Below are positions 18,371 to 60,774 of a stretch of DNA of 64,000 bases, piece by piece. Each line of letters opens with the position of its first letter. Position 1 is the first letter of the stretch. The notes beneath the pieces were generated by a model. It was not told the DNA's origin and ran no database searches. It saw nothing but the letters and a program-made list of their open reading frames with translations. Source of the DNA: a virus (taxonomy: Duplodnaviria; Heunggongvirae; Uroviricota; Caudoviricetes); the IMG/VR virus record IMGVR_UViG_2645727901_000008; one strand, 5' to 3'. Position numbers and translations under genes: made by a program.

Positions 18371-18396
18371 AAAAAGCCCCAGGCGGGGCTTTTTCT
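18371..18396. terminator. Bidirectional rho-independent terminator
   Basis: A-run, GCCCC-AGGC-GGGGC hairpin, T-run between convergent parG and dam-like gene. Confidence 0.6.
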
Positions 18397-19300
18397 ATTT
18401 GAGCGTTGCAATGATATCGTTAGCGACTATTCGCGTGGATGCTTTGCATGACACGGACCGTCTGGCTGGCATGTGGTACAGCTTAAAACCGTTTCTTTCG
18501 TACAATTCGCGAATTTTTGGCGCGCCACTGTTTGTTATTACTATCTTTGCACCGCGCTGGTGGGCCGCCACCAACAGTGATACAAGCCGTTTTTGTTCAT
18601 CGAAAAGGAAGCTATTTCCTGAATAGCTGGTAAATCCCTCTGTATCTGGCAGCGGCTCATACGGCGGGTCACAAAAAATCACATCGTCTTTACCAGCCGC
18701 CTCGATGACACCAGCAAAGTCACCTGATACAAAGGAAGTGTTTTTGAGTACGTCATCAGCCAAAAATGCCTTCATCTCTGCATGTGGGAAGTAGGGCGCT
18801 TTGTATTTGCCATACCCCACGTTGAACTCGCCATTTTGGTTGTACCGCGTTACGCCATTAAAACAGTGACGATTAAGGTACAAAAATGCGGCAGCATGAT
18901 GTAGTTGGTCATACTTTCCTCTGTTAAATGCCTCACGCACTTCGAGGTAAGCGTCAGCGTTGTTGTAATTTTTGAAAAAACTATATGACAGCGTGACGAG
19001 CGAATGTCCTTCTCGCTGCAATGTCTGATAGAAGTTAATCAGGTCACCGTTAATATCATTAAGCAGGTTGTGGCGAAATCCTGCATTCGTAAATACGGAA
19101 CCGCCACCAACGAATGGTTCTATTAACCGCTTACCGTGTGGTAGATGCTCAAGCACTGTAGGCAATTCTGAGAATTTACCACCTACCCATTTGAATATCG
19201 GACGCTCATATTCATCCGGAGTCCGAATGGTGCGCATATAGCTAATTTCAGCCATCGTATCCTGTTTTTCTATGGCTATGCTTGCTATAGATTTACTCAT
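18395..19300 (-). CDS. dmt: Dam-type N6-adenine DNA methyltransferase
   Basis: FKWVGGK motif I and DPPY catalytic motif; ATG 19300 overlaps the upstream stop by 8 nt. Confidence 0.75.
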   Translation of the reverse strand: MSKSIASIAIEKQDTMAEISYMRTIRTPDEYERPIFKWVGGKFSELPTVLEHLPHGKRLIEPFVGGGSVFTNAGFRHNLLNDINGDLINFYQTLQREGHSLVTLSYSFFKNYNNADAYLEVREAFNRGKYDQLHHAAAFLYLNRHCFNGVTRYNQNGEFNVGYGKYKAPYFPHAEMKAFLADDVLKNTSFVSGDFAGVIEAAGKDDVIFCDPPYEPLPDTEGFTSYSGNSFLFDEQKRLVSLLVAAHQRGAKIVITNSGAPKIRELYERNGFKLYHMPARRSVSCKASTRIVANDIIATLK

Positions 19301-20045
19301 AGAGCACCCCCTTATTCGCTTCGAAAACTGCCTTTGCGAATCCATGTGGAGTAGCACTTCGAAAATTAGCCCTGTCAGGCCCTGGTGGCGCGGCATGGAT
19401 TCTGTTATCTGGCTTGCCTAATGATTCGTCCATTAGGGCATCAGGCATGACAAAGCCCTGGCCGCTCCAGAGGCATGTTTTTTTTGTGTAGTTATCTTCC
19501 TGACAATATGCAGTGAAGAAGTAAGGGTGAAAGATGTGATCTGGCTTACGCCAGAATGTCGATATTTTGCTGACCGGATTTTCAATCATGTACGGACAAC
19601 CGATCATCTTTGCAATGTCATAACACTGCCAGACAACCTGCATTGCTTTGAACTGGAAAACCGGATCTTTATTAGCCTTGTCCGAAAACCAGCGCGCGCC
19701 GGAAACAGCCAGGTCAGTACACGGTGGGAACCCGGCCAGAAACACGATGCGCTGCAAATTCTTACGGAGAAAAGCGTATACTTCATCGCTATCGATGATC
19801 GCACTAATACGCGTCAGAACGGCACCTGATTGCATCCGCTCGTCACTGGTCGATAAGTGCTGTGGATCGACGATAGCGGCATCGACACCGTATTCCAGCC
19901 AGGGGGCAACCATTGCCCCCGTAAAATCACAAAGACTCACAACAAGCTGTCGGTTATTATCGTTCTGCTTCACCGCCAATGGCCTCCACCAGCGCGTTAA
20001 ACAGTGCAGATAATTCGCCCGTAAAGAGCACGAAATCAGCATCAA
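19293..20045 (-). CDS. C5-cytosine methyltransferase-like protein (catalytic-domain motifs only)
   Basis: Motif I-like [10 protein letters not shown] motif FAGFPPC, ENP motif; overlaps hrdC 3-prime end and the dam-like start. Confidence 0.5.
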
Positions 20046-30267: not shown

Positions 30268-31337
30268 TGTGCACTCCATTTTTCAAGAATCATTACGTTT
30301 CGAATCGATTTTTCAACCAAATCATTTATAGTTTTTTCTATGGCTTCTTGTGACAACCCAGACCATATACCCGTAGGTTTTTCCCATTCAGAGCATAAGT
30401 ACTGCCAGCTGCTGTTAATAAAAGCATGCATTTCATTGTGGTCGCGAATAACAAAAGGACGCACATTATCAAAAGCTGATTTCACATCAAGCAAAGGTGT
30501 CGGCAATGTCAAACAAGGAGAAATAATCTGCCCACCATTATGTAAGGCTGATATCACAGCATTGAACATGCCAACAACTGGATTTTCCACTTTGTTCAAA
30601 AAGTCGCTTACAATTTTAACTCTATCTTCTGTGGATGGGTGAGTATAGCTTGCAGGATGAGAGCCAGCTAATTTGTATAAGAAATCTACCCCACTTTTTC
30701 CAATAAATTGGGCACTAAATAGATCTGCAAAATATTCTCTGCAATGATTTATCCAAATAACATCAGGTAGATTACTCCATTCTGGTCCAGGAAGTGTGCC
30801 TTTGTCCTTGGAACGATAGTTAAGACAGGCAAGCTCAGAAATACCTTTGCTAATATCAACGAAATGTCCCAATTCGTGATATAAAGGTATAGAGCATAAT
30901 GGTCGTCTTCTGTACATTTCAGGTAATGAAATCTGAATTAATTCGACATCGAATTTGACATTTAAAACTTCGTCAAATAAAGAATACAAATTCTTGTTTA
31001 CAGACTTAAAATAAAACCCATGCATATCTGGAGATAGGGCTGTGGTTATAAGTGTTTTTTCACTTATCCATTTTTTACAGGCATCATTTAAGCAATAGAC
31101 AATCTCGTAGGGAATTTTCTTTGTAGTACTGCCAGTGAAAAAATTAACTGCATCGGTGATAAAAAAAGTACAATCCGCAATTATTTTATCAGCAACATTC
31201 ACATGGTTTTCATAGAGCTTATCCACCGCTTCTTGTAGAACAGCAAGATATTCATGCATGTCTTTAGAAAAATAGGGAGATTCTGATATCTCCCTTAGCT
31301 TATTTCGAACTAATGTAAGTTGTGTAAATGCAAGCAT
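30264..31337 (-). CDS. HExxH metallopeptidase-like protein (ImmA/IrrE-like HELGH motif)
   Basis: PLYHELGHFVD motif in a 357-aa protein; start overlaps the upstream stop (TAATG). Confidence 0.55.
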   Translation of the reverse strand: MLAFTQLTLVRNKLREISESPYFSKDMHEYLAVLQEAVDKLYENHVNVADKIIADCTFFITDAVNFFTGSTTKKIPYEIVYCLNDACKKWISEKTLITTALSPDMHGFYFKSVNKNLYSLFDEVLNVKFDVELIQISLPEMYRRRPLCSIPLYHELGHFVDISKGISELACLNYRSKDKGTLPGPEWSNLPDVIWINHCREYFADLFSAQFIGKSGVDFLYKLAGSHPASYTHPSTEDRVKIVSDFLNKVENPVVGMFNAVISALHNGGQIISPCLTLPTPLLDVKSAFDNVRPFVIRDHNEMHAFINSSWQYLCSEWEKPTGIWSGLSQEAIEKTINDLVEKSIRNVMILEKWSAQ

Positions 31338-31642
31338 TAAATGTACTCTAATACATTCCGGGCCATTACGGGTTCTAACATATCTTCGCTAGTTACTTTG
31401 GTTAGCACCTGGGCGAGCGCCTTAGTGTGGCGTATCTCTACCGCGAGCGAGATGGACTCTCTGTGAGAAGGAATCTGTAATTGATCACCTTTATCTACAC
31501 TTAAGTTTGAGGCTTCTCTGATCACCTCATAAACCCGTAACTTTAACTGCTGTGACACTTCTTGTTGAGATGCTATAAGCTGAAGTACAGTCTTGATCAA
31601 CTTCAAAGAATCAGAAGCTTGCTGAGGAACCGCATAGAGCAT
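31337..31642 (-). CDS. Small protein, first gene of the three-gene cassette
   Basis: 101-aa ORF translationally coupled to the HExxH gene. Confidence 0.45.
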   Translation of the reverse strand: MLYAVPQQASDSLKLIKTVLQLIASQQEVSQQLKLRVYEVIREASNLSVDKGDQLQIPSHRESISLAVEIRHTKALAQVLTKVTSEDMLEPVMARNVLEYI

Positions 31643-31821: not shown

Positions 31822-31967
31822 AACTTGATCATTTTCTCGCTGAAGTGTATGTCAGGCTTAGCTCATAATCAAGTTGCTTCCAAGCTAAAAATGAGCTAGC
31901 TCCCTGAAACACTAAGAGCGGGGTGTTTCATTTATTAGCGTTGGGCCTGACGGTGTGTAGGTGAATT

Positions 31968-51649: not shown

Positions 51650-51672
51650 AGCCCCGCATTGCCGGGGCTTTA
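51650..51672. terminator. Bidirectional rho-independent terminator
   Basis: GCCCCG-CATTGC-CGGGGC hairpin with flanking A/T runs. Confidence 0.6.
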
Positions 51673-53178
51673 TATATCCAGATCTGGCATTTCCACATCT
51701 GCAAGAACCTGATCGCGGAAGGTAGCCATTTCAGCGCCGATATCTTCATTAGCAGGAACATAGTCCACCAGCATTGTAAAGCAGTAGGTATCCCATCGGT
51801 CAGGTGATTTGATGTTCAGCTTTTGCCGCATGTGCTCCTTGCGCATCATCGCCATCTTCCCTTCTTCATTAAGTAAAAAGGGGATTTTTGACGCTTGCTC
51901 TGCCGTTTTAGGGTCACTGTCTATTCGCATACGACCTGACTTTATGGCATCACGAGCCATAATATTTGCGTAGGCACGTTGGTTAACAAAACGCTCCTTG
52001 TCTTTGTTCGAAAACATGGGTTTCCCCCACCGAATACGTACCGGATTAGCCCCACGGCGCACCAGCTGCGCACAGGTATCTGAACCAAAACCGTCTGCGT
52101 CAACCGCGATTGTAATATTCGGGTATTTATCCGGCGTGCATTCGTTGTATATAAAGTCAGCAAAAGCCAGCGGGTCCATAGTCCCTGGCATTTCCATTAT
52201 CTTAAAGTTAACAACGCGCCGCTTATTCCTGTGACCTGACACCTTGCAGATGTTAAGGACCGACTTGTCTCGCCCGTTCCCAACGTCAGCTGTCGCTACC
52301 CACCCCCAATTTTTCTCCAACAACACCTTGCGCCGCGCAGCGCGATCGCATTCATCACGACCAAGCAAATAGCCGTTAATCTCCCGAGGGAACTGACCAA
52401 GCACCTTAACCATATACTCAATAGAATCGCGCCCGCCATATTCCAGGAGTTTCTGCCTGATGAATTGTGGTGTGACGAACGGTGATTCTTCTGAGTTAAG
52501 AACAATTGCTGTCCAGATCCCTTTCGGGTTGTCTGGGGTTTTAGCTTGAGAATGGTGCGAATCGTAGAAATAACCACTTGGCCTTGTTGGCTGGGATAGC
52601 ATCAACATTCGGTTATCTTCTTCAGTAAGAGCACCGGTCATTACGCCGATCGCCTTATCAGATATACCAGATGCTTCATCCAGAATTAGAAGCAAATGTG
52701 CCGCGTGTTCCCCCGCCAGCGCTTCTTCGTTGCCGAGTCGATAACCTTTGCAGAGAACTTCCCAAATCCCCTTACGGGAGCGCTCATAAAACATGGTGTC
52801 AGAGAGGACAAAATAGGTCTGCAACCACCCATGACGCTTAACTGCATTCGCCCAATACTGTTTAACGTATTTGAATACGCCTGTTTTTACCTGGCCTATC
52901 TTGTTAGCAACAATGATGACACGGGCATCGGGGAACAGGATCATAAAAATCAACAGCAACATCGCGGTAAGGGACGACTTCCCCGTTCCGTGTCCGGACG
53001 TGACGGTAGTCCTACTCCCCGTTTCCTGCACTGACTGAATGATCTGCTGCTGCTGGTGGGAGGGGAACATCCCAAAAATATCGACAACAGCCTGGGTAAA
53101 GTTGTAGCGGTATTTGATTACCATATCGCGCCAGCGTGGATCGCTGGTGACGCATTTAATCTTGCGCCCGCCAGCCAT
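51670..53178 (-). CDS. pacB: Terminase large subunit (PacB-like)
   Basis: Walker A GHGTGKSS; 502 aa; GGAGGATG RBS. Confidence 0.8.
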   Translation of the reverse strand: MAGGRKIKCVTSDPRWRDMVIKYRYNFTQAVVDIFGMFPSHQQQQIIQSVQETGSRTTVTSGHGTGKSSLTAMLLLIFMILFPDARVIIVANKIGQVKTGVFKYVKQYWANAVKRHGWLQTYFVLSDTMFYERSRKGIWEVLCKGYRLGNEEALAGEHAAHLLLILDEASGISDKAIGVMTGALTEEDNRMLMLSQPTRPSGYFYDSHHSQAKTPDNPKGIWTAIVLNSEESPFVTPQFIRQKLLEYGGRDSIEYMVKVLGQFPREINGYLLGRDECDRAARRKVLLEKNWGWVATADVGNGRDKSVLNICKVSGHRNKRRVVNFKIMEMPGTMDPLAFADFIYNECTPDKYPNITIAVDADGFGSDTCAQLVRRGANPVRIRWGKPMFSNKDKERFVNQRAYANIMARDAIKSGRMRIDSDPKTAEQASKIPFLLNEEGKMAMMRKEHMRQKLNIKSPDRWDTYCFTMLVDYVPANEDIGAEMATFRDQVLADVEMPDLDI

Positions 53179-54542
53179 TAATCATCCTCCGGCGGTTCTA
53201 TCGCGATATCATCATCTCCGGCGTCATACCCTGCATCAGATACATCATAATCACCGTAAATTTCAGCCGTTGCCGAAGGGTCAATATCCAGCTCTTCGTC
53301 GTTGGCCTCGAATTCTCCAGCTTTACGCTCGCCATTGCGGTCGTAATCTCCGCACCCCAATTCTTCAACAATGGTTGCCACATCCGCCCGGCGCTCTGCC
53401 AGCCATTGCGGATGGTTAGCCTGAAGCGTTGCAAACTCCCTTGCCTCTTTGTCCAGCTGTTCATCATCAACATCATTGACGTCAGAAACAGGTGGTTCGA
53501 GAAGAGTGATAGCTTTCGCCGCGCGCGCCGCGAGGATAGCCGGGACGCTGACCCCCTGGCGCTCGATGTATTCAGCAACACCGATATCATCCAGTTCCTC
53601 GCGCTCACGCATACGTATAGCGGCGGCGATAACTCTGGCTGCGCGTGCGTCAGCGCCAATGCGATATTCAATCTCTTTGCCACGCTGTTCGGCCTGTAGG
53701 CGTGCTAATTCGAGTTTTTCTCTGGCCTCAGCCTCTTTGAATGCTTGCTGGCGAGCGCTCTGACGAAGCTTTTCATCCCCCTGTCGCAGCTTTTGTTCGG
53801 ACTGATATATAGCTGCCAACCTACTGATAAAATCATTCATGTAGTAGGCCGCGTCACTGATTAGACCGAGAAGACGCTGCCCAGGGTGCATTCCTTCTGG
53901 CTCTTTATCGCCCAAGGCGTCTATTTCCGCCTGTAGGCGTTCGGCCTCCTGATCAACAATGCTTTGATACTGAAGTGCGCGCTCTTGCGCCATTTGAATT
54001 GCTAACCGCAGGTGTTCTTCTGCGCCGTTCTTCATCATATCGCGAGCCACATTCGTAGTGGGCAATGTGGCACGCTGCACAGCACCGTCAGGGATCATTG
54101 CAGAAGATCCCTCAATTTTTGGGGCGCTTTTATCTTCTTCGGGGATCATTTTCGCCATTTTTTCGCGCAATGATCTCCTGACAGATTCTTTTATCTCATT
54201 GTTATTATTTGCATTATTTTCATGATCCGAAGTTTTCTTTCTCGGCATACTTCGGAAAGAACCTGCGCCCTGCGAATTGTCAATTTCTGTAAATTTTGTT
54301 TTTTCTGCACCCTCTTCCAGCTTTTTTGTTGCTCTTCCCGCCCGTTTTTTTTCAGGTGATTTGGTGCTTTTTTTTGTTGTCTTTACCTGCGACCGCACCT
54401 CATTTTTTTTCATATTGAGATGCTTTCTGGCTGTATTGAAGCTAAGGCCATGCTCCTCACAGTATTCCTTTACAGTGATCCCTTTTTCTTCACGCAACGC
54501 TATAAAGCGGGCGCGGTGCTCCTCCCAATTAACCAGACTCAT
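53178..54542 (-). CDS. pacA: Terminase small subunit (PacA-like)
   Basis: Upstream of and coupled to pacB; contains a GATC-rich pac-like region. Confidence 0.7.
   Translation of the reverse strand: MSLVNWEEHRARFIALREEKGITVKEYCEEHGLSFNTARKHLNMKKNEVRSQVKTTKKSTKSPEKKRAGRATKKLEEGAEKTKFTEIDNSQGAGSFRSMPRKKTSDHENNANNNNEIKESVRRSLREKMAKMIPEEDKSAPKIEGSSAMIPDGAVQRATLPTTNVARDMMKNGAEEHLRLAIQMAQERALQYQSIVDQEAERLQAEIDALGDKEPEGMHPGQRLLGLISDAAYYMNDFISRLAAIYQSEQKLRQGDEKLRQSARQQAFKEAEAREKLELARLQAEQRGKEIEYRIGADARAARVIAAAIRMREREELDDIGVAEYIERQGVSVPAILAARAAKAITLLEPPVSDVNDVDDEQLDKEAREFATLQANHPQWLAERRADVATIVEELGCGDYDRNGERKAGEFEANDEELDIDPSATAEIYGDYDVSDAGYDAGDDDIAIEPPEDD
54090..54230. other. pac-like cluster of GATC hexamers inside pacA
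   Basis: Five GATC sites in about 135 bp. Confidence 0.4.
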
Positions 54543-54931
54543 AAAGCAACACCACGCTTTTTAACGGCGGCATTCCACAGCTTATTCGCCATGTCCACCA
54601 GCTCTCGTTGCTCTTTTCGCGCCTGTTCGACTGATTTCCTGCTACAGTTTTTAACCAGTAAGCTACCGTATTCAGGCGTGCGCCCGCGCACCTTGAACTG
54701 ATATCCGTTCAGACCATGTAGCCAATATTTTCGTGGATACACACGATCATCCAGCTCACAGATTGCCCTGCTTGAACGAACAAAATGACGAATGATGTTA
54801 GTTACACTTACTCGTGAAACATGGAGATGAGGGTATTTTTCTTTGGCGAGAGTGGTAATTTCAGTGACTGTCAGATAGCAGTCAGCCCTGATCATGATAT
54901 CCGCAATTTCTGCGCTGCTGATTTGTTCCAT
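54539..54931 (-). CDS. lpa: Putative late-promoter activator (Lpa-like, by position)
   Basis: 130-aa ORF directly upstream of pacA with an operator-like site upstream. Confidence 0.45.
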   Translation of the reverse strand: MEQISSAEIADIMIRADCYLTVTEITTLAKEKYPHLHVSRVSVTNIIRHFVRSSRAICELDDRVYPRKYWLHGLNGYQFKVRGRTPEYGSLLVKNCSRKSVEQARKEQRELVDMANKLWNAAVKKRGVAL

Positions 54932-55005
54932 TAATCCCCCGGGCAGGAAATGACCGAGGGGATGATAATGAGAATGTTAAAACTGTATAGACTGGTAAAA
55001 AGATG

Positions 55006-55026
55006 ATTATATTAGAAAATTAATAT
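55006..55026. promoter_or_regulatory. C1-type operator-like site upstream of lpa
   Basis: ATTATATTAGAAAATTAATAT. Confidence 0.4.
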
Positions 55027-55039
55027 TAAATACCTAACG

Positions 55040-55432
55040 CTACCAGCGAGACAAACGAACAACATGTTTCACTTTTGCGATCCACTTTCCGCGATAACTA
55101 TTGATTACGGCCTGTGCCAGCTTCAAATTGGCTTCAAAATCAGCCTTACTACCATCAGACTCCACCAGCATTCCTCCATCTATTTCTGGTAAACATAGAT
55201 AATCCTGCTCAACCTGCAGCGGCATTGATGGCTCTCTGAATGGCGTTACTTGCTCTGCTTTCCAGCGAAATCTAACCCTCATCCCCCTGGTGGTCATTAC
55301 TAGATAGCCTGTTATAGTGCTTTTATGGCCCACATCAGTACGCGTGGCATTGCATGACACGATCTTACAGTTAGCGATAGACCACTCCATATTGGTGGCC
55401 TGTTGAGTGCTTAATTTGGTAGTCCCGTACAT
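55040..55432 (-). CDS. Hypothetical protein
   Basis: 130-aa ORF. Confidence 0.4.
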   Translation of the reverse strand: MYGTTKLSTQQATNMEWSIANCKIVSCNATRTDVGHKSTITGYLVMTTRGMRVRFRWKAEQVTPFREPSMPLQVEQDYLCLPEIDGGMLVESDGSKADFEANLKLAQAVINSYRGKWIAKVKHVVRLSRW

Positions 55433-59555: not shown

Positions 59556-60774
59556 ATTTCCCATAAAGATCTTCTACGCCCCCATTCTTCTTGTCCCATT
59601 CGTTAGCCCACACCCGGCAGGCATCAATAATTTCTTGACGACGGTCGCCCTGCATAAAGGGGATGCTTTCATGAAAACTACTTGGGATACAGGCCACGCT
59701 GAATACGGTATCAAACGCAGTCTGTTTGATAGCTTCCAACGTCTCTGGGCGCATTTTCAATTCATCGATCGGCGCATCCTTAGAGTCCATAATCCGGCGA
59801 TGCAGGCGCGGGAAATCAGTCTCCAGGTACGCCATAATTTTATCTGCCAGGCATTCGTCTATATCGGTATTCCAGTCCGTTTCGAAGCCGGGCAGGCGAT
59901 AGTAAAGCGGCGTTCCCCATACTGATGGGATCACATCCATCGTCAGCAGGCGGTTGGTTCTAATTTGTTGATGGTAATTAGCCGTCAACAGAGCTTCACC
60001 ACGCTGACCAGTCTCCGCAACCAGACCATGCGGGTACTCATGGATATAGGCAATAGCATCCACCCCGTCATACATGAGCGGGAATGTCTCTGGCCTTTGT
60101 CCCATACCACAAGCGCGGTTCAGATCATGACCAAGCTGTGAGCACTCTCGTTTCAGCGTTTCAATAATGTTCTGCGCTGTTGCTAACTTTTTACGCAGTG
60201 TGACGCCTTCGCCTTGATACTTAATGCATTGCTGATTCAGCTCTGTTAAACGCTCTTTTAGTTCCCGACGCTCTCTTTTCAGCGCACGGTTATCCTTCTC
60301 CGCAACATCCAGTCGTTTTGACAGACTGGCTGGATAGTCTTTTTTGTAACGACTCAAATCGGCTTCTGCGGATTTGCGCAGTGTGTTTGCCTGTTCAAGA
60401 CGCGCTTCCAGATTACCGATCTCACTACGCATATTCGCGGCAAATTGATTAACAGCATTGCCAAGACTTTCAACTGTCGCTGATACGCCTGTGACTTGTG
60501 AAAAACGGATCAAGCCATCATTAACGGCTTGTTGATATCCCTCAAACTGATCCACCAGCTTGTTGTAATCAACCGTCCCTTCCTCAAGTAGCTGGTTGAT
60601 CTCCGCGACCAGGTTATCAGTAGTGGCAATGACGCTCTCATGTAACCGTCTGGACAGGTCATCCCCCGGATTCCGCTTTTGAATAAGGGCGATCTGTGTC
60701 CGCAGCGTTTCAATCGCGGCTGAGATGATTTCCAGATTAGAAGTATCAGTTTGTTGACTCATTGCAGTTCCCAT
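59554..60774 (-). CDS. Operator-controlled coiled-coil protein
   Basis: ATG 60774 (or 60762) just downstream of the operator; long N-terminal coiled-coil. Confidence 0.5.
   Translation of the reverse strand: MGTAMSQQTDTSNLEIISAAIETLRTQIALIQKRNPGDDLSRRLHESVIATTDNLVAEINQLLEEGTVDYNKLVDQFEGYQQAVNDGLIRFSQVTGVSATVESLGNAVNQFAANMRSEIGNLEARLEQANTLRKSAEADLSRYKKDYPASLSKRLDVAEKDNRALKRERRELKERLTELNQQCIKYQGEGVTLRKKLATAQNIIETLKRECSQLGHDLNRACGMGQRPETFPLMYDGVDAIAYIHEYPHGLVAETGQRGEALLTANYHQQIRTNRLLTMDVIPSVWGTPLYYRLPGFETDWNTDIDECLADKIMAYLETDFPRLHRRIMDSKDAPIDELKMRPETLEAIKQTAFDTVFSVACIPSSFHESIPFMQGDRRQEIIDACRVWANEWDKKNGGVEDLYGK

What the first reader, a model, noticed from the sequence alone, without database searches (positions are those of the whole stretch)
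54090..54230. pac-like GATC cluster inside pacA, with a Dam-type methylase encoded on the same element
Five GATC hexamers within about 135 bp of the pacA coding region match the P1 logic in which packaging cleavage is controlled by adenine methylation of clustered GATC sites; the element encodes its own Dam-like enzyme (18395-19300).
Basis: partly seen in the sequence, partly recalled or inferred. Interest (0 to 1): 0.4.

Follow-up and report, generated by a model that had tools for sequence, protein, structure and literature searches.

The report
Candidate packaging site of D6-like phage
The five clustered GATC sites are a conserved DNA repeat element inside the small-terminase gene of a phage D6-like plasmid prophage, most likely its packaging start site and probably gated by Dam methylation as in phage P1, so this is an expected relative of a known system, not a new kind.

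Summary
The window is a phage D6-like plasmid prophage, a distant relative of P1. The five GATC sites exist exactly as described, 316-450 nt into pacA (53178-54542, minus strand). P1's mapped pac site lies in the corresponding part of its pacA.

The cluster alone is only marginally unusual: P=0.18 for any such cluster in 64 kb. Comparison makes it real. Relatives with 67-69% nucleotide identity keep all five GATC at identical positions inside the most variable part of the gene (P about 4e-5). Gly/Arg replacements preserve GATC, and synonymous positions inside the motif are frozen.

The repeat unit is an asymmetric 9-mer, AATGATCCC, in both orientations, not P1's TGATCA/G hexamer. The D6 lineage also lacks the left-hand array seen in P1 and seven other PacA lineages. 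Across 11 lineages the flanks differ but the GATC core persists.

The element encodes a Dam-family methylase (18395-19300, minus strand), 65-66.5% identical to the Dam domain of P1 Dmt.

The best reading is the D6-type pac site working by P1 logic. Cleavage and methylation dependence are inferred, not shown. It is a new member of a known kind, of modest interest.

The parts
54091..54228 (.). pac-like cluster of five GATC-containing repeats (pacA nt 316-452). The midpoint between the inner and outer repeat pairs falls near window 54160.
54222..54228 (+). Site A: ATGATCC (GATC 54224-54227; pacA nt 316), the weakest match to the 9-mer (7 of 9).
   Evidence: Invariant CGGATCA in four lineages.
54169..54177 (+). 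Site B: AATGATCTC (GATC 54172-54175; pacA nt 368). Relatives have AATGATCCC here.
   Evidence: The Arg/Gly codon differs between lineages but GATC is kept.
54142..54150 (-). Site C: AATGATCCC (GATC 54144-54147; pacA nt 396), encoding Met-Ile-Pro.
   Evidence: AAATGATCCC is the longest invariant run in the variable linker.
54103..54111 (+). Site D: GAAGATCCC (GATC 54106-54109; pacA nt 434). With site E it forms a short palindrome, which has perfect 10-bp arms in the E. marmotae plasmid.
54091..54099 (-). Site E: AATGATCCC (GATC 54093-54096; pacA nt 447), encoding Met-Ile-Pro.
54192..54204 (-). Weak IHF-like sequence TAACAATGAGATA between sites A and B. It has 2 mismatches to WATCAANNNNTTR and resembles the annotated P1 IHF site AAACAAAGAGTTA. 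Speculative.
   Evidence: Partly conserved (ATAACA invariant). Not statistically distinguishable from chance.
53178..54542 (-). pacA, terminase small subunit, 454 aa. It has an N-terminal HTH, a variable Lys/Asn-rich linker (aa ~48-170) that carries the cluster, and a conserved C-terminal part.
51670..53178 (-). pacB, terminase large subunit, 502 aa, 56% identical to P1 PacB.
54539..54931 (-). lpa, late promoter activator. Its stop codon overlaps the pacA start.
18395..19300 (-). Dam-family N6-adenine DNA methyltransferase with a DPPY motif, 65-66.5% identical to the Dam domain of P1 Dmt.
19293..20045 (-). Second DNA methyltransferase ORF (PHROG 757; annotated in D6 as putative cytosine methylase), overlapping the Dam gene by 8 nt. 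In P1 a single dmt ORF extends about 2.2 kb upstream of its Dam domain.

Best explanation
The cluster is the packaging initiation (pac) site of this D6-like phage-plasmid. It is written into the permissive, variable linker of the small-terminase gene pacA, as in P1. It consists of five copies of an asymmetric GATC-containing element with consensus AATGATCCC. Relative to the coding strand the orientations are reverse, reverse, forward, reverse, forward.

Inferred mechanism, by homology with P1:
1. Late in infection PacA (N-terminal HTH) and PacB assemble on these repeats.
2. The DNA is cut inside the cluster. Two candidate places are the midpoint between the repeat pairs near window 54160 and the A+T-rich 48-bp gap between sites A and B.
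3. Headful packaging then runs towards pacB, c1 and rox, so that the Dre target lies in the terminal redundancy.
4. Because every repeat contains GATC, cutting is probably gated by N6-adenine methylation, supplied by host Dam and by the phage's own Dam orthologue. Fully methylated sites would be cut and freshly replicated hemimethylated sites spared. This would limit initiation events per concatemer.

Shown here: the repeats, their DNA-level conservation, their homologous position, the family-wide GATC core, and the Dam orthologue. Inferred: binding, cleavage position, packaging direction and methylation dependence.
For: Identity of the element: the window is collinear with phage D6 at 93-96% identity, and pacA is 99% identical to D6 pacA.

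Position: P1 pac cleavage maps 276-285 nt into P1 pacA, between hexamer arrays at nt 195-232 and 325-351. The D6 cluster lies at nt 316-450 of its pacA, in the same variable linker.

Conservation:
- Three plasmid lineages with only 67-69% nucleotide identity over the first 600 nt keep all five GATC at identical positions.
- Only 13% of 4-mers in linker nt 141-520 are invariant, which gives P about 4e-5 for five out of five.
- The two longest invariant runs in the linker are AAATGATCCC and AATGATCCC.
- 27 of the 29 distinct D6-type pacA sequences that share this five-site layout keep all five.

DNA-level rather than protein-level constraint:
- Gly/Arg replacements (GGA/AGA) at sites B and D retain GATC.
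- The codons for Asp106, Ser124, Ile133 and Ile150 are identical in all four lineages, against 35% for invariant degenerate residues in general. The Pro third position just outside the 9-mer varies freely.
- With the protein sequence held fixed, synonymous resampling gives fewer GATC than observed. P is 0.05, 0.003, 0.02 and 0.002 in four D6-type lineages, and 0.019 for P1 as positive control.

Repeat nature: the E. marmotae plasmid has four perfect 11-mers, AAATGATCCCT, two in each orientation. In the window, 3 of the 13 matches to the 9-mer with at most 1 mismatch fall within 87 bp.

Family-wide pattern: in 11 PacA lineages (25-100% amino-acid identity; Escherichia, Enterobacter, Citrobacter, Pantoea, Serratia, Xenorhabdus and P1), GATC is 4.6 times denser in nt 140-480 than in the rest of pacA and pacB. 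The flanks differ between lineages (TGATCA, GTGATCAC, GCGATCAA, CTGATC, AATGATCCC) while the GATC core is kept.

Methylase: a Dam-family enzyme sharing the target-recognition loop of P1 Dmt.

P1 precedent: seven TGATCA/G hexamers carry Dam sites, and their methylation state governs cleavage (PMC10028697, citing Sternberg & Coulby 1987 and 1988 and Skorupski et al. 1994).
Against: - No packaged-end data for D6 were available. The D6 genome paper and the paper on the D6 immC region were not held.
- None of the five sites is a P1 hexamer.
- The D6 lineage lacks the left-hand, often 12-bp-phased array at pacA nt 145-255. P1 and seven other lineages have it, including the nearest outgroup in Enterobacter hormaechei. 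The P1 geometry of two arrays flanking a spacer of about 90 bp is therefore not reproduced.
- The IHF-like match is weak, with 2 mismatches.
- Within the window alone the cluster is not significant (P=0.18).
- Two natural variants each lack one site (L023 lacks site B, L041 lacks site C), so no single site is indispensable.
- Methylation dependence cannot be read from sequence.
Confidence: 0.65

Rival explanations
1. The repeats are the PacA recognition and pac site, but cleavage does not depend on methylation. GATC is simply part of the protein's recognition sequence, and the phage Dam serves anti-restriction or other roles.
For: The conserved unit is 9-11 bp, longer than GATC, as expected for a protein-binding site. 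Phage Dam enzymes are widespread and have other functions (520 phage records hit).
Against: Across PacA lineages the flanking bases of the repeat have changed (TGATCA, GCGATCAA, CTGATC, AATGATCCC) while GATC has not. That fits a constraint from a shared GATC-reading factor, on top of the lineage-specific terminase. In P1 the methylation dependence is experimentally established (cited in PMC10028697).
Confidence: 0.2
2. The cluster is a conserved Dam/SeqA-sensitive or PacA-autoregulatory element that controls pacA-pacB expression or timing. The true cleavage site lies elsewhere.
For: Clustered GATC sites are classic SeqA and Dam regulatory targets (established knowledge). The lpa stop overlaps the pacA start, so regulation here differs from P1, which has an intergenic late promoter.
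Against: No promoter-like site lies in or next to the cluster. The position matches the mapped P1 pac. No other cluster of the 9-mer exists in the 64-kb window, although 27 kb of the element lies outside the window.
Confidence: 0.08
3. The GATC sites are by-products of conserved peptide motifs in PacA (Met-Ile-Pro twice, Asp-His, Gly-Ser) and have no role as DNA.
For: The invariant residues in the linker coincide with the sites. With the protein fixed, about 2.4 GATC are expected in the linker anyway.
Against: - The Gly/Arg replacements keep GATC.
- Synonymous positions inside the motif are invariant, while the base just outside varies.
- The same 9-11-mer occurs on both strands, so in different reading frames and coding contexts.
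- The rest of the linker is the least conserved part of the protein.
- Site turnover in the E. hormaechei lineage keeps the number of sites rather than the peptides.
Confidence: 0.04
4. The cluster is a chance aggregation of GATC sites.
For: A window-wide scan gives P=0.18 for such a cluster anywhere in 64 kb.
Against: The positions are conserved in lineages at 67-69% identity (P about 4e-5), and the same feature recurs in 11 PacA lineages.
Confidence: 0.01

Closest known systems
Bacteriophage P1 pac site (161-162 bp inside pacA; HEX4 and HEX3 arrays of TGATCA/G, an IHF site, central cleavage, cleavage regulated by Dam methylation)
   Same: - It lies in the 5' variable linker of the homologous small-terminase gene.
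- It consists of multiple GATC-containing repeats.
- The adjacent PacB is 56% identical, and the gene order lpa-pacA-pacB-c1-recombinase site is the same.
- The phage encodes a Dam orthologue.
   Different: - The repeat is the asymmetric 9-mer AATGATCCC in both orientations, not the near-palindromic hexamer TGATCA/G.
- There are five sites rather than seven or eight.
- There is no left array at nt 145-255, and the whole cluster lies about 100 nt further into the gene.
- There is no convincing IHF site.
- PacA is only 21% identical to P1 PacA.
- Function is untested.
GATC arrays in pacA of other P1-supercluster plasmid prophages (Enterobacter hormaechei p60214CZ_1; Pantoea, Serratia, Xenorhabdus, Citrobacter and E. 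kobei plasmids)
   Same: GATC is enriched in pacA nt 140-480. The E. hormaechei lineage uses the same AATGATCCC unit and shares three of the five positions.
   Different: All of these have a two-part layout, with a left array that is often phased at 12 bp. The D6 lineage has a 12-nt deletion at that place and no left array.
P1 Dmt (DNA methyltransferase with a Dam domain)
   Same: 65-66.5% identity over the Dam domain, a DPPY motif and the same target-recognition loop, LNRHCFNG(V/L)TRYNQ-GEFNVGYGKYK.
   Different: In P1 the Dam domain is the C-terminal part of one long dmt ORF. Here it is a separate 301-aa ORF that overlaps an upstream methyltransferase ORF by 8 nt.
pac sites inside small-terminase genes of other headful phages (P22 gene 3, SPP1 gene 1, Sf6); from established knowledge
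   Same: The packaging site is embedded in the small-terminase gene and recognised by that gene's own product.
   Different: Those sites are not built from GATC repeats and are not known to be gated by Dam methylation.

Membership tests
P1-type pac site | Located within the 5' part of the small-terminase gene pacA, next to pacB | tested here: met
   The cluster lies at pacA nt 316-450 of 1365. P1 pac lies at nt 195-351 of 1194, with cleavage at 276-285. PacB is 56% identical to P1 PacB.
P1-type pac site | Repeated hexamer 5'-TGATCA/G-3' | tested here: not met
   None of the five sites reads TGATCA or TGATCG on either strand. The unit is AATGATCCC.
P1-type pac site | Every repeat contains a Dam site (GATC) | tested here: met
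   All five repeats contain GATC, and the core is invariant in diverged relatives and across 11 PacA lineages.
P1-type pac site | Two arrays (4 + 3) flanking a central spacer of about 90 bp that holds the cleavage site | tested here: not met
   Spacings are 52, 28, 38 and 13 bp. There is no array at the HEX4-equivalent position. Four of the five sites are arranged roughly symmetrically around nt 383, a pattern noticed after the fact.
P1-type pac site | IHF-binding site next to the cleavage point | tested here: inconclusive
   Only a match with 2 mismatches, TAACAATGAGATA, at 54192-54204. About one such match is expected by chance in a region of this size.
P1-type pac site | Cut by PacA and PacB to start headful packaging | not testable with these tools
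   No virion-end data are available. Contig-end analysis was not possible.
P1-type pac site | Cleavage requires full adenine methylation of the repeats | not testable with these tools
   This is an inference from P1 (PMC10028697) and from the family-wide invariance of the GATC core.
Dam family (D12 class N6-adenine methyltransferase, GATC-specific) | Profile match above the curated cut-off, and the catalytic DPPY motif | tested here: met
   TIGR00571 at 248 bits against a cut-off of 114.85. PF02086 at 1.5e-55. DPPY present. E. coli Dam at 4e-58.
Dam family (D12 class N6-adenine methyltransferase, GATC-specific) | GATC target specificity | not testable with these tools
   Inferred from 65-66.5% identity to the P1 Dmt Dam domain and a shared recognition loop. 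The score is below the E. coli Dam equivalog cut-off (237 against 441 bits).

The most novel reading that the evidence does not exclude
The D6 lineage has rewired pac recognition. It uses an asymmetric 9-bp element (AATGATCCC) arranged roughly symmetrically around a midpoint, has lost the ancestral left array, and has a PacA only 21% identical to that of P1. D6 and P1 pacases would then be heterospecific, like Dre and Cre. The GATC core retained in every lineage would mark a methylation timer shared by the whole P1 supercluster. This would give a second packaging signal, orthogonal to P1's, for phagemid delivery.
Probability: 0.4. Interest if true: 0.45.

Novelty: new member of a known kind. 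Interest (0 to 1): 0.3.

Why it matters
If confirmed, this locates the pac site of the D6 group. These phage-plasmids are widespread in E. coli, Salmonella and Shigella: 121 PLSDB plasmids carry this pacA. Such elements move DNA by generalized transduction.

The comparison also suggests that a GATC-built pac site is ancestral to the whole P1 supercluster, while the terminase-specific flanks have diverged. That helps in predicting packaging specificity, in designing P1- or D6-based phagemids that do not cross-package, and in interpreting coverage steps in sequencing of induced lysogens.

It does not reveal a new mechanism.

Tried and rejected
- **Literature.** The D6 genome paper (Gilcrease & Casjens 2018), the D6 immC paper (Sauer & McDermott 2004) and the P1 genome paper (Lobocka 2004) are not held. 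Full-text searches for D6 with GATC or pac found nothing relevant. I therefore cannot exclude that the D6 cluster has already been noted in print.
- **Genome-contig scan** with the PacA alignment found no relatives.
- **Physical DNA ends from contig ends.** I scanned metagenome and viral collections with flanking 29-mers. Locus boundaries turned out to be storage chunks, not contig ends, so this was uninformative. One IMG/VR isolate contig does end at pacA nt 329, between sites A and B, but that is a single anecdote.
- **tblastn of D6 PacA against phage records** finds only D6 at E<=1e-5. Homology to P1 PacA shows only in a pairwise comparison (21% identity, E=7e-10).
- **Promoter and terminator scan** of 53700-55100 found no promoter in the cluster, and terminator-like hairpins only on the antisense strand at near-chance numbers.
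- **IHF consensus.** Only a match with 2 mismatches, so it is not used as evidence.
- **Other loose GATC clusters** (19538-19868 and 60418-60694) lie in ordinary coding sequence (a methyltransferase ORF and a PmgS-like gene) and are no denser than expected.

Full report
**What the window is.** The pacA region is 99% identical in DNA to Escherichia phage D6 (MF356679, AY753669). Two 24-25 kb blocks of the window are collinear with D6 at 93-96% identity. D6 is a plasmid prophage distantly related to P1. The local gene order, all on the minus strand, is:
- lpa (54539-54931; Pfam late promoter activator, 5e-57)
- pacA (53178-54542; 454 aa)
- pacB (51670-53178; 502 aa)

The C1 repressor gene and the rox/dre recombination module follow, as in the D6 records. 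PacB is 56% identical to P1 PacB. PacA is only 21% identical to P1 PacA (E=7e-10 pairwise), with the similarity concentrated in the N-terminal HTH and the C-terminal part. PHROG matches confirm the terminase assignments.

**The observation.** GATC occurs at 54093, 54106, 54144, 54172 and 54224. In pacA coding-strand coordinates these are nt 447, 434, 396, 368 and 316.
- It is the densest five-site cluster in the window: 135 bp, against 277 bp for the next non-overlapping one.
- Random placement of 214 sites gives such a cluster somewhere in 64 kb 18% of the time.
- Against the local pacA/pacB density the Poisson P is 0.012.

On its own the cluster is weak evidence. None of them is the P1 hexamer TGATCA/G on either strand.

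**Comparative evidence that it is a real DNA element.** PLSDB holds 121 plasmids with this pacA, with identity ranging from 99% down to 67%. I compared lineages from an E. marmotae, a Shigella dysenteriae and an E. fergusonii plasmid. These are 67-69% identical to the window over the first 600 nt of pacA.
- All five GATC sit at exactly the same positions.
- The surrounding linker (nt 141-520) is the least conserved part of the gene. Only 48% of its columns and 13% of its 4-mers are invariant. That gives P about 4e-5 for five conserved GATC out of five.
- The two longest invariant runs in the linker are AAATGATCCC and AATGATCCC. CGGATCA and GATCATT are also among the few invariant runs.
- Of 31 distinct D6-type pacA sequences from PLSDB and IMG/VR, 29 share this five-site layout, and 27 of those keep all five sites. 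The other two each lack one site, and the two Enterobacter hormaechei-type sequences have a different layout.

The constraint acts on DNA, not on protein:
- At sites B and D the residue alternates between Gly (GGA) and Arg (AGA) while GATC stays.
- The codons for Asp106, Ser124, Ile133 and Ile150 are identical in all four lineages. Only 35% of invariant degenerate residues have that property.
- The Pro third position immediately 3' of the motif varies freely.
- The same 9-11-mer occurs on both strands, hence in different coding contexts.
- Holding the protein fixed and resampling synonymous codons gives fewer GATC than observed in every D6-type lineage (P = 0.05, 0.003, 0.02, 0.002). The same holds for P1, the positive control (P = 0.019).

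**Anatomy.** The unit is an asymmetric 9-mer, AATGATCCC, which extends to a perfect 11-mer, AAATGATCCCT, present four times in the E. marmotae plasmid. The table gives each site relative to the coding strand.

| Site | pacA nt | Orientation | Sequence in the window |
|---|---|---|---|
| A | 316 | reverse | CATGATCCG |
| B | 368 | reverse | AATGATCTC (AATGATCCC in relatives) |
| C | 396 | forward | AATGATCCC |
| D | 434 | reverse | GAAGATCCC |
| E | 447 | forward | AATGATCCC |

- Sites B and C, and sites A and E, are back-to-back pairs sharing a midpoint at nt 383, which is window position 54160. Sites D and E form a short palindrome.
- This symmetry was noticed after the fact, and it is not kept in the Enterobacter lineage, so I treat it as a lead only.
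- In the window, 3 of the 13 matches to the 9-mer with at most 1 mismatch fall within 87 bp, and 3 of the 8 ATGATCC fall within 137 bp.
- Between sites A and B lies an A+T-rich 48-bp gap containing TAACAATGAGATA. This resembles the annotated P1 IHF site AAACAAAGAGTTA but has two mismatches to the IHF consensus, so it is not significant.

**Relation to P1 and to the wider family.** In P1 the pac cleavage points are annotated 276-285 nt into pacA, next to an IHF site. They lie between four hexamers at nt 195-232 and three or four at nt 325-379. I examined pacA genes encoding proteins with roughly 25-56% identity to the window's PacA, from Enterobacter hormaechei, E. kobei, Citrobacter, two Pantoea, Serratia and Xenorhabdus plasmids.
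- Each has a GATC array at nt 145-255, reduced to a single site in Citrobacter and often phased at 12 bp. For example, one Pantoea plasmid has sites at 154, 166, 178, 190, 202 and 214.
- Each also has a second group at about nt 325-470.
- Over 11 lineages GATC is 4.6 times denser in nt 140-480 than in the rest of pacA plus pacB. The 140-480 interval was chosen after seeing the data.
- The flanks of the repeat differ by lineage: TGATCA in P1, Pantoea agglomerans and Xenorhabdus; GTGATCAC in Serratia; GCGATCAA in Pantoea sp.; CTGATC in E. kobei; AATGATCCC in the D6 group. The GATC core is constant.
- This pattern fits a lineage-specific terminase contact combined with a shared reader of GATC, that is Dam methylation and possibly SeqA.

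The D6 lineage is the outlier. At the position of the left array it has a 12-nt deletion and no GATC. Its nearest outgroup, E. hormaechei at 55-57% amino-acid identity, still has three sites there, two of them AATGATCCC units 12 bp apart, plus five sites on the right. Three of those five are positionally shared with D6.

**The methylase.** The ORF at 18395-19300 (minus strand) is a Dam-family enzyme.
- It matches PF02086 at 1.5e-55 and TIGR00571 at 248 bits against a cut-off of 115, and its best solved-structure match is E. coli Dam at 4e-58.
- It is 95.5% identical to the D6 'site-specific DNA-adenine methylase' and 65-66.5% identical to the Dam domain of P1 Dmt. It shares the DPPY motif and the recognition loop with the latter.
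- In P1 a single dmt ORF continues about 2.2 kb upstream of the Dam domain. Here the Dam ORF is preceded by a separate methyltransferase ORF (19293-20045; PHROG 757) that overlaps it by 8 nt.
- GATC specificity is inferred, not shown.

**Mechanism proposed.** By homology with P1, PacA and PacB would assemble on the repeats. They would cut within the cluster and start headful packaging towards pacB, c1 and rox. Cutting would be restricted to fully methylated GATC, so that freshly replicated hemimethylated copies are spared. The P1 facts are that seven TGATCA/G hexamers carry Dam sites, that hemimethylated pac is bound but needs further methylation to be cut, and that IHF and HU are required. 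These are summarised in PMC10028697, which cites Sternberg & Coulby 1987 and 1988 and Skorupski et al. 1994. I put about 0.8 on 'this is the pac or terminase recognition site' and about 0.65 on the full statement including methylation control.

**Rivals.**
- A methylation-independent pac site (0.2).
- A regulatory GATC or PacA-binding element with pac elsewhere (0.08).
- A by-product of conserved peptide motifs (0.04).
- Chance (0.01).

**Novelty and interest.** The logic is that of P1, known since the late 1980s, and the element is a known phage type. What is added:
- a specific, testable location for the D6-group pac site;
- its distinct 9-mer unit and derived architecture;
- the family-wide pattern of an invariant GATC core with lineage-specific flanks.

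I could not read the two D6 papers, so prior description cannot be excluded. I rate this a new member of a known kind, with interest 0.3.

Noticed in passing
window 31482-31599 (also 31826): Three P1-type palindromic hexamers TGATCA lie within 116 bp, inside a small ORF of unknown function (31337-31642, minus strand; PHROG 27938). Only 25 TGATCA occur in the whole window, so about 0.02 such triplets are expected by chance. A fourth site lies in the A+T-rich intergenic region at 31826.
   Followed up: partly
window 18395-20045: The Dam domain is a separate ORF here. An upstream methyltransferase ORF (19293-20045, minus strand; PHROG 757) and the Dam ORF (18395-19300, minus strand) overlap by 8 nt. 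In P1 a single long dmt ORF continues upstream of the Dam domain.
   Followed up: partly
window 54539-54542: The lpa stop codon overlaps the pacA start. There is therefore no room for an intergenic late promoter like P1's LPpac, which sits in an 85-bp lpa-pacA spacer. The late promoter for pacA and pacB must lie upstream of lpa or inside it.
   Followed up: no
window 54277-54295 (pacA nt 248-266): A conserved block without GATC, AATTTACA..TGACAA, stands out in the otherwise variable linker, 50-68 bp upstream of the first GATC repeat. It is also recognisable in the E. hormaechei lineage. It could be another cis element of the packaging site or a conserved peptide (FT-D).
   Followed up: no
whole window: GATC is mildly under-represented overall: 214 sites against 250±15 in dinucleotide-preserving shuffles, and every one of the 100 shuffles had at least 214.
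   Followed up: no
L042 / L069 (IMG/VR contig UViG_2537562191_000026, end of contig): A 19-kb contig from an isolate genome ends at pacA nt 329, in the A+T-rich gap between GATC sites A and B. This is a single case and could be an assembly accident rather than a physical DNA end.
   Followed up: partly
L007 (E. hormaechei p60214CZ_1), pacA nt 157-181 and 380-471; also L039 and L045: The nearest outgroup lineage has eight GATC sites: a left trio with 12-bp spacing at the position of P1's four-hexamer array, plus five on the right. It shows turnover of individual sites relative to D6, with the D6 positions nt 316 and 434 lost and new sites gained.
   Followed up: yes
L008 (Salmonella plasmid pSa1423-90k, NZ_MK356557.1): Its pacA homologue has 18 in-frame stop codons from scattered single-base insertions and deletions. 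This is probably sequence-quality error rather than a true pseudogene. Four of the five GATC sites remain at matching positions and the fifth lies about 3 nt away.
   Followed up: no
window 54474-54482 (pacA nt 63): A further match to the repeat (AGTGATCCC, 8 of 9) lies in the HTH-coding part of pacA, 253 bp upstream of site A. Its GATC is conserved in the lineages at 67-69% identity but absent in the E. hormaechei lineage. This part of the protein is highly conserved, so the conservation is not informative.
   Followed up: partly
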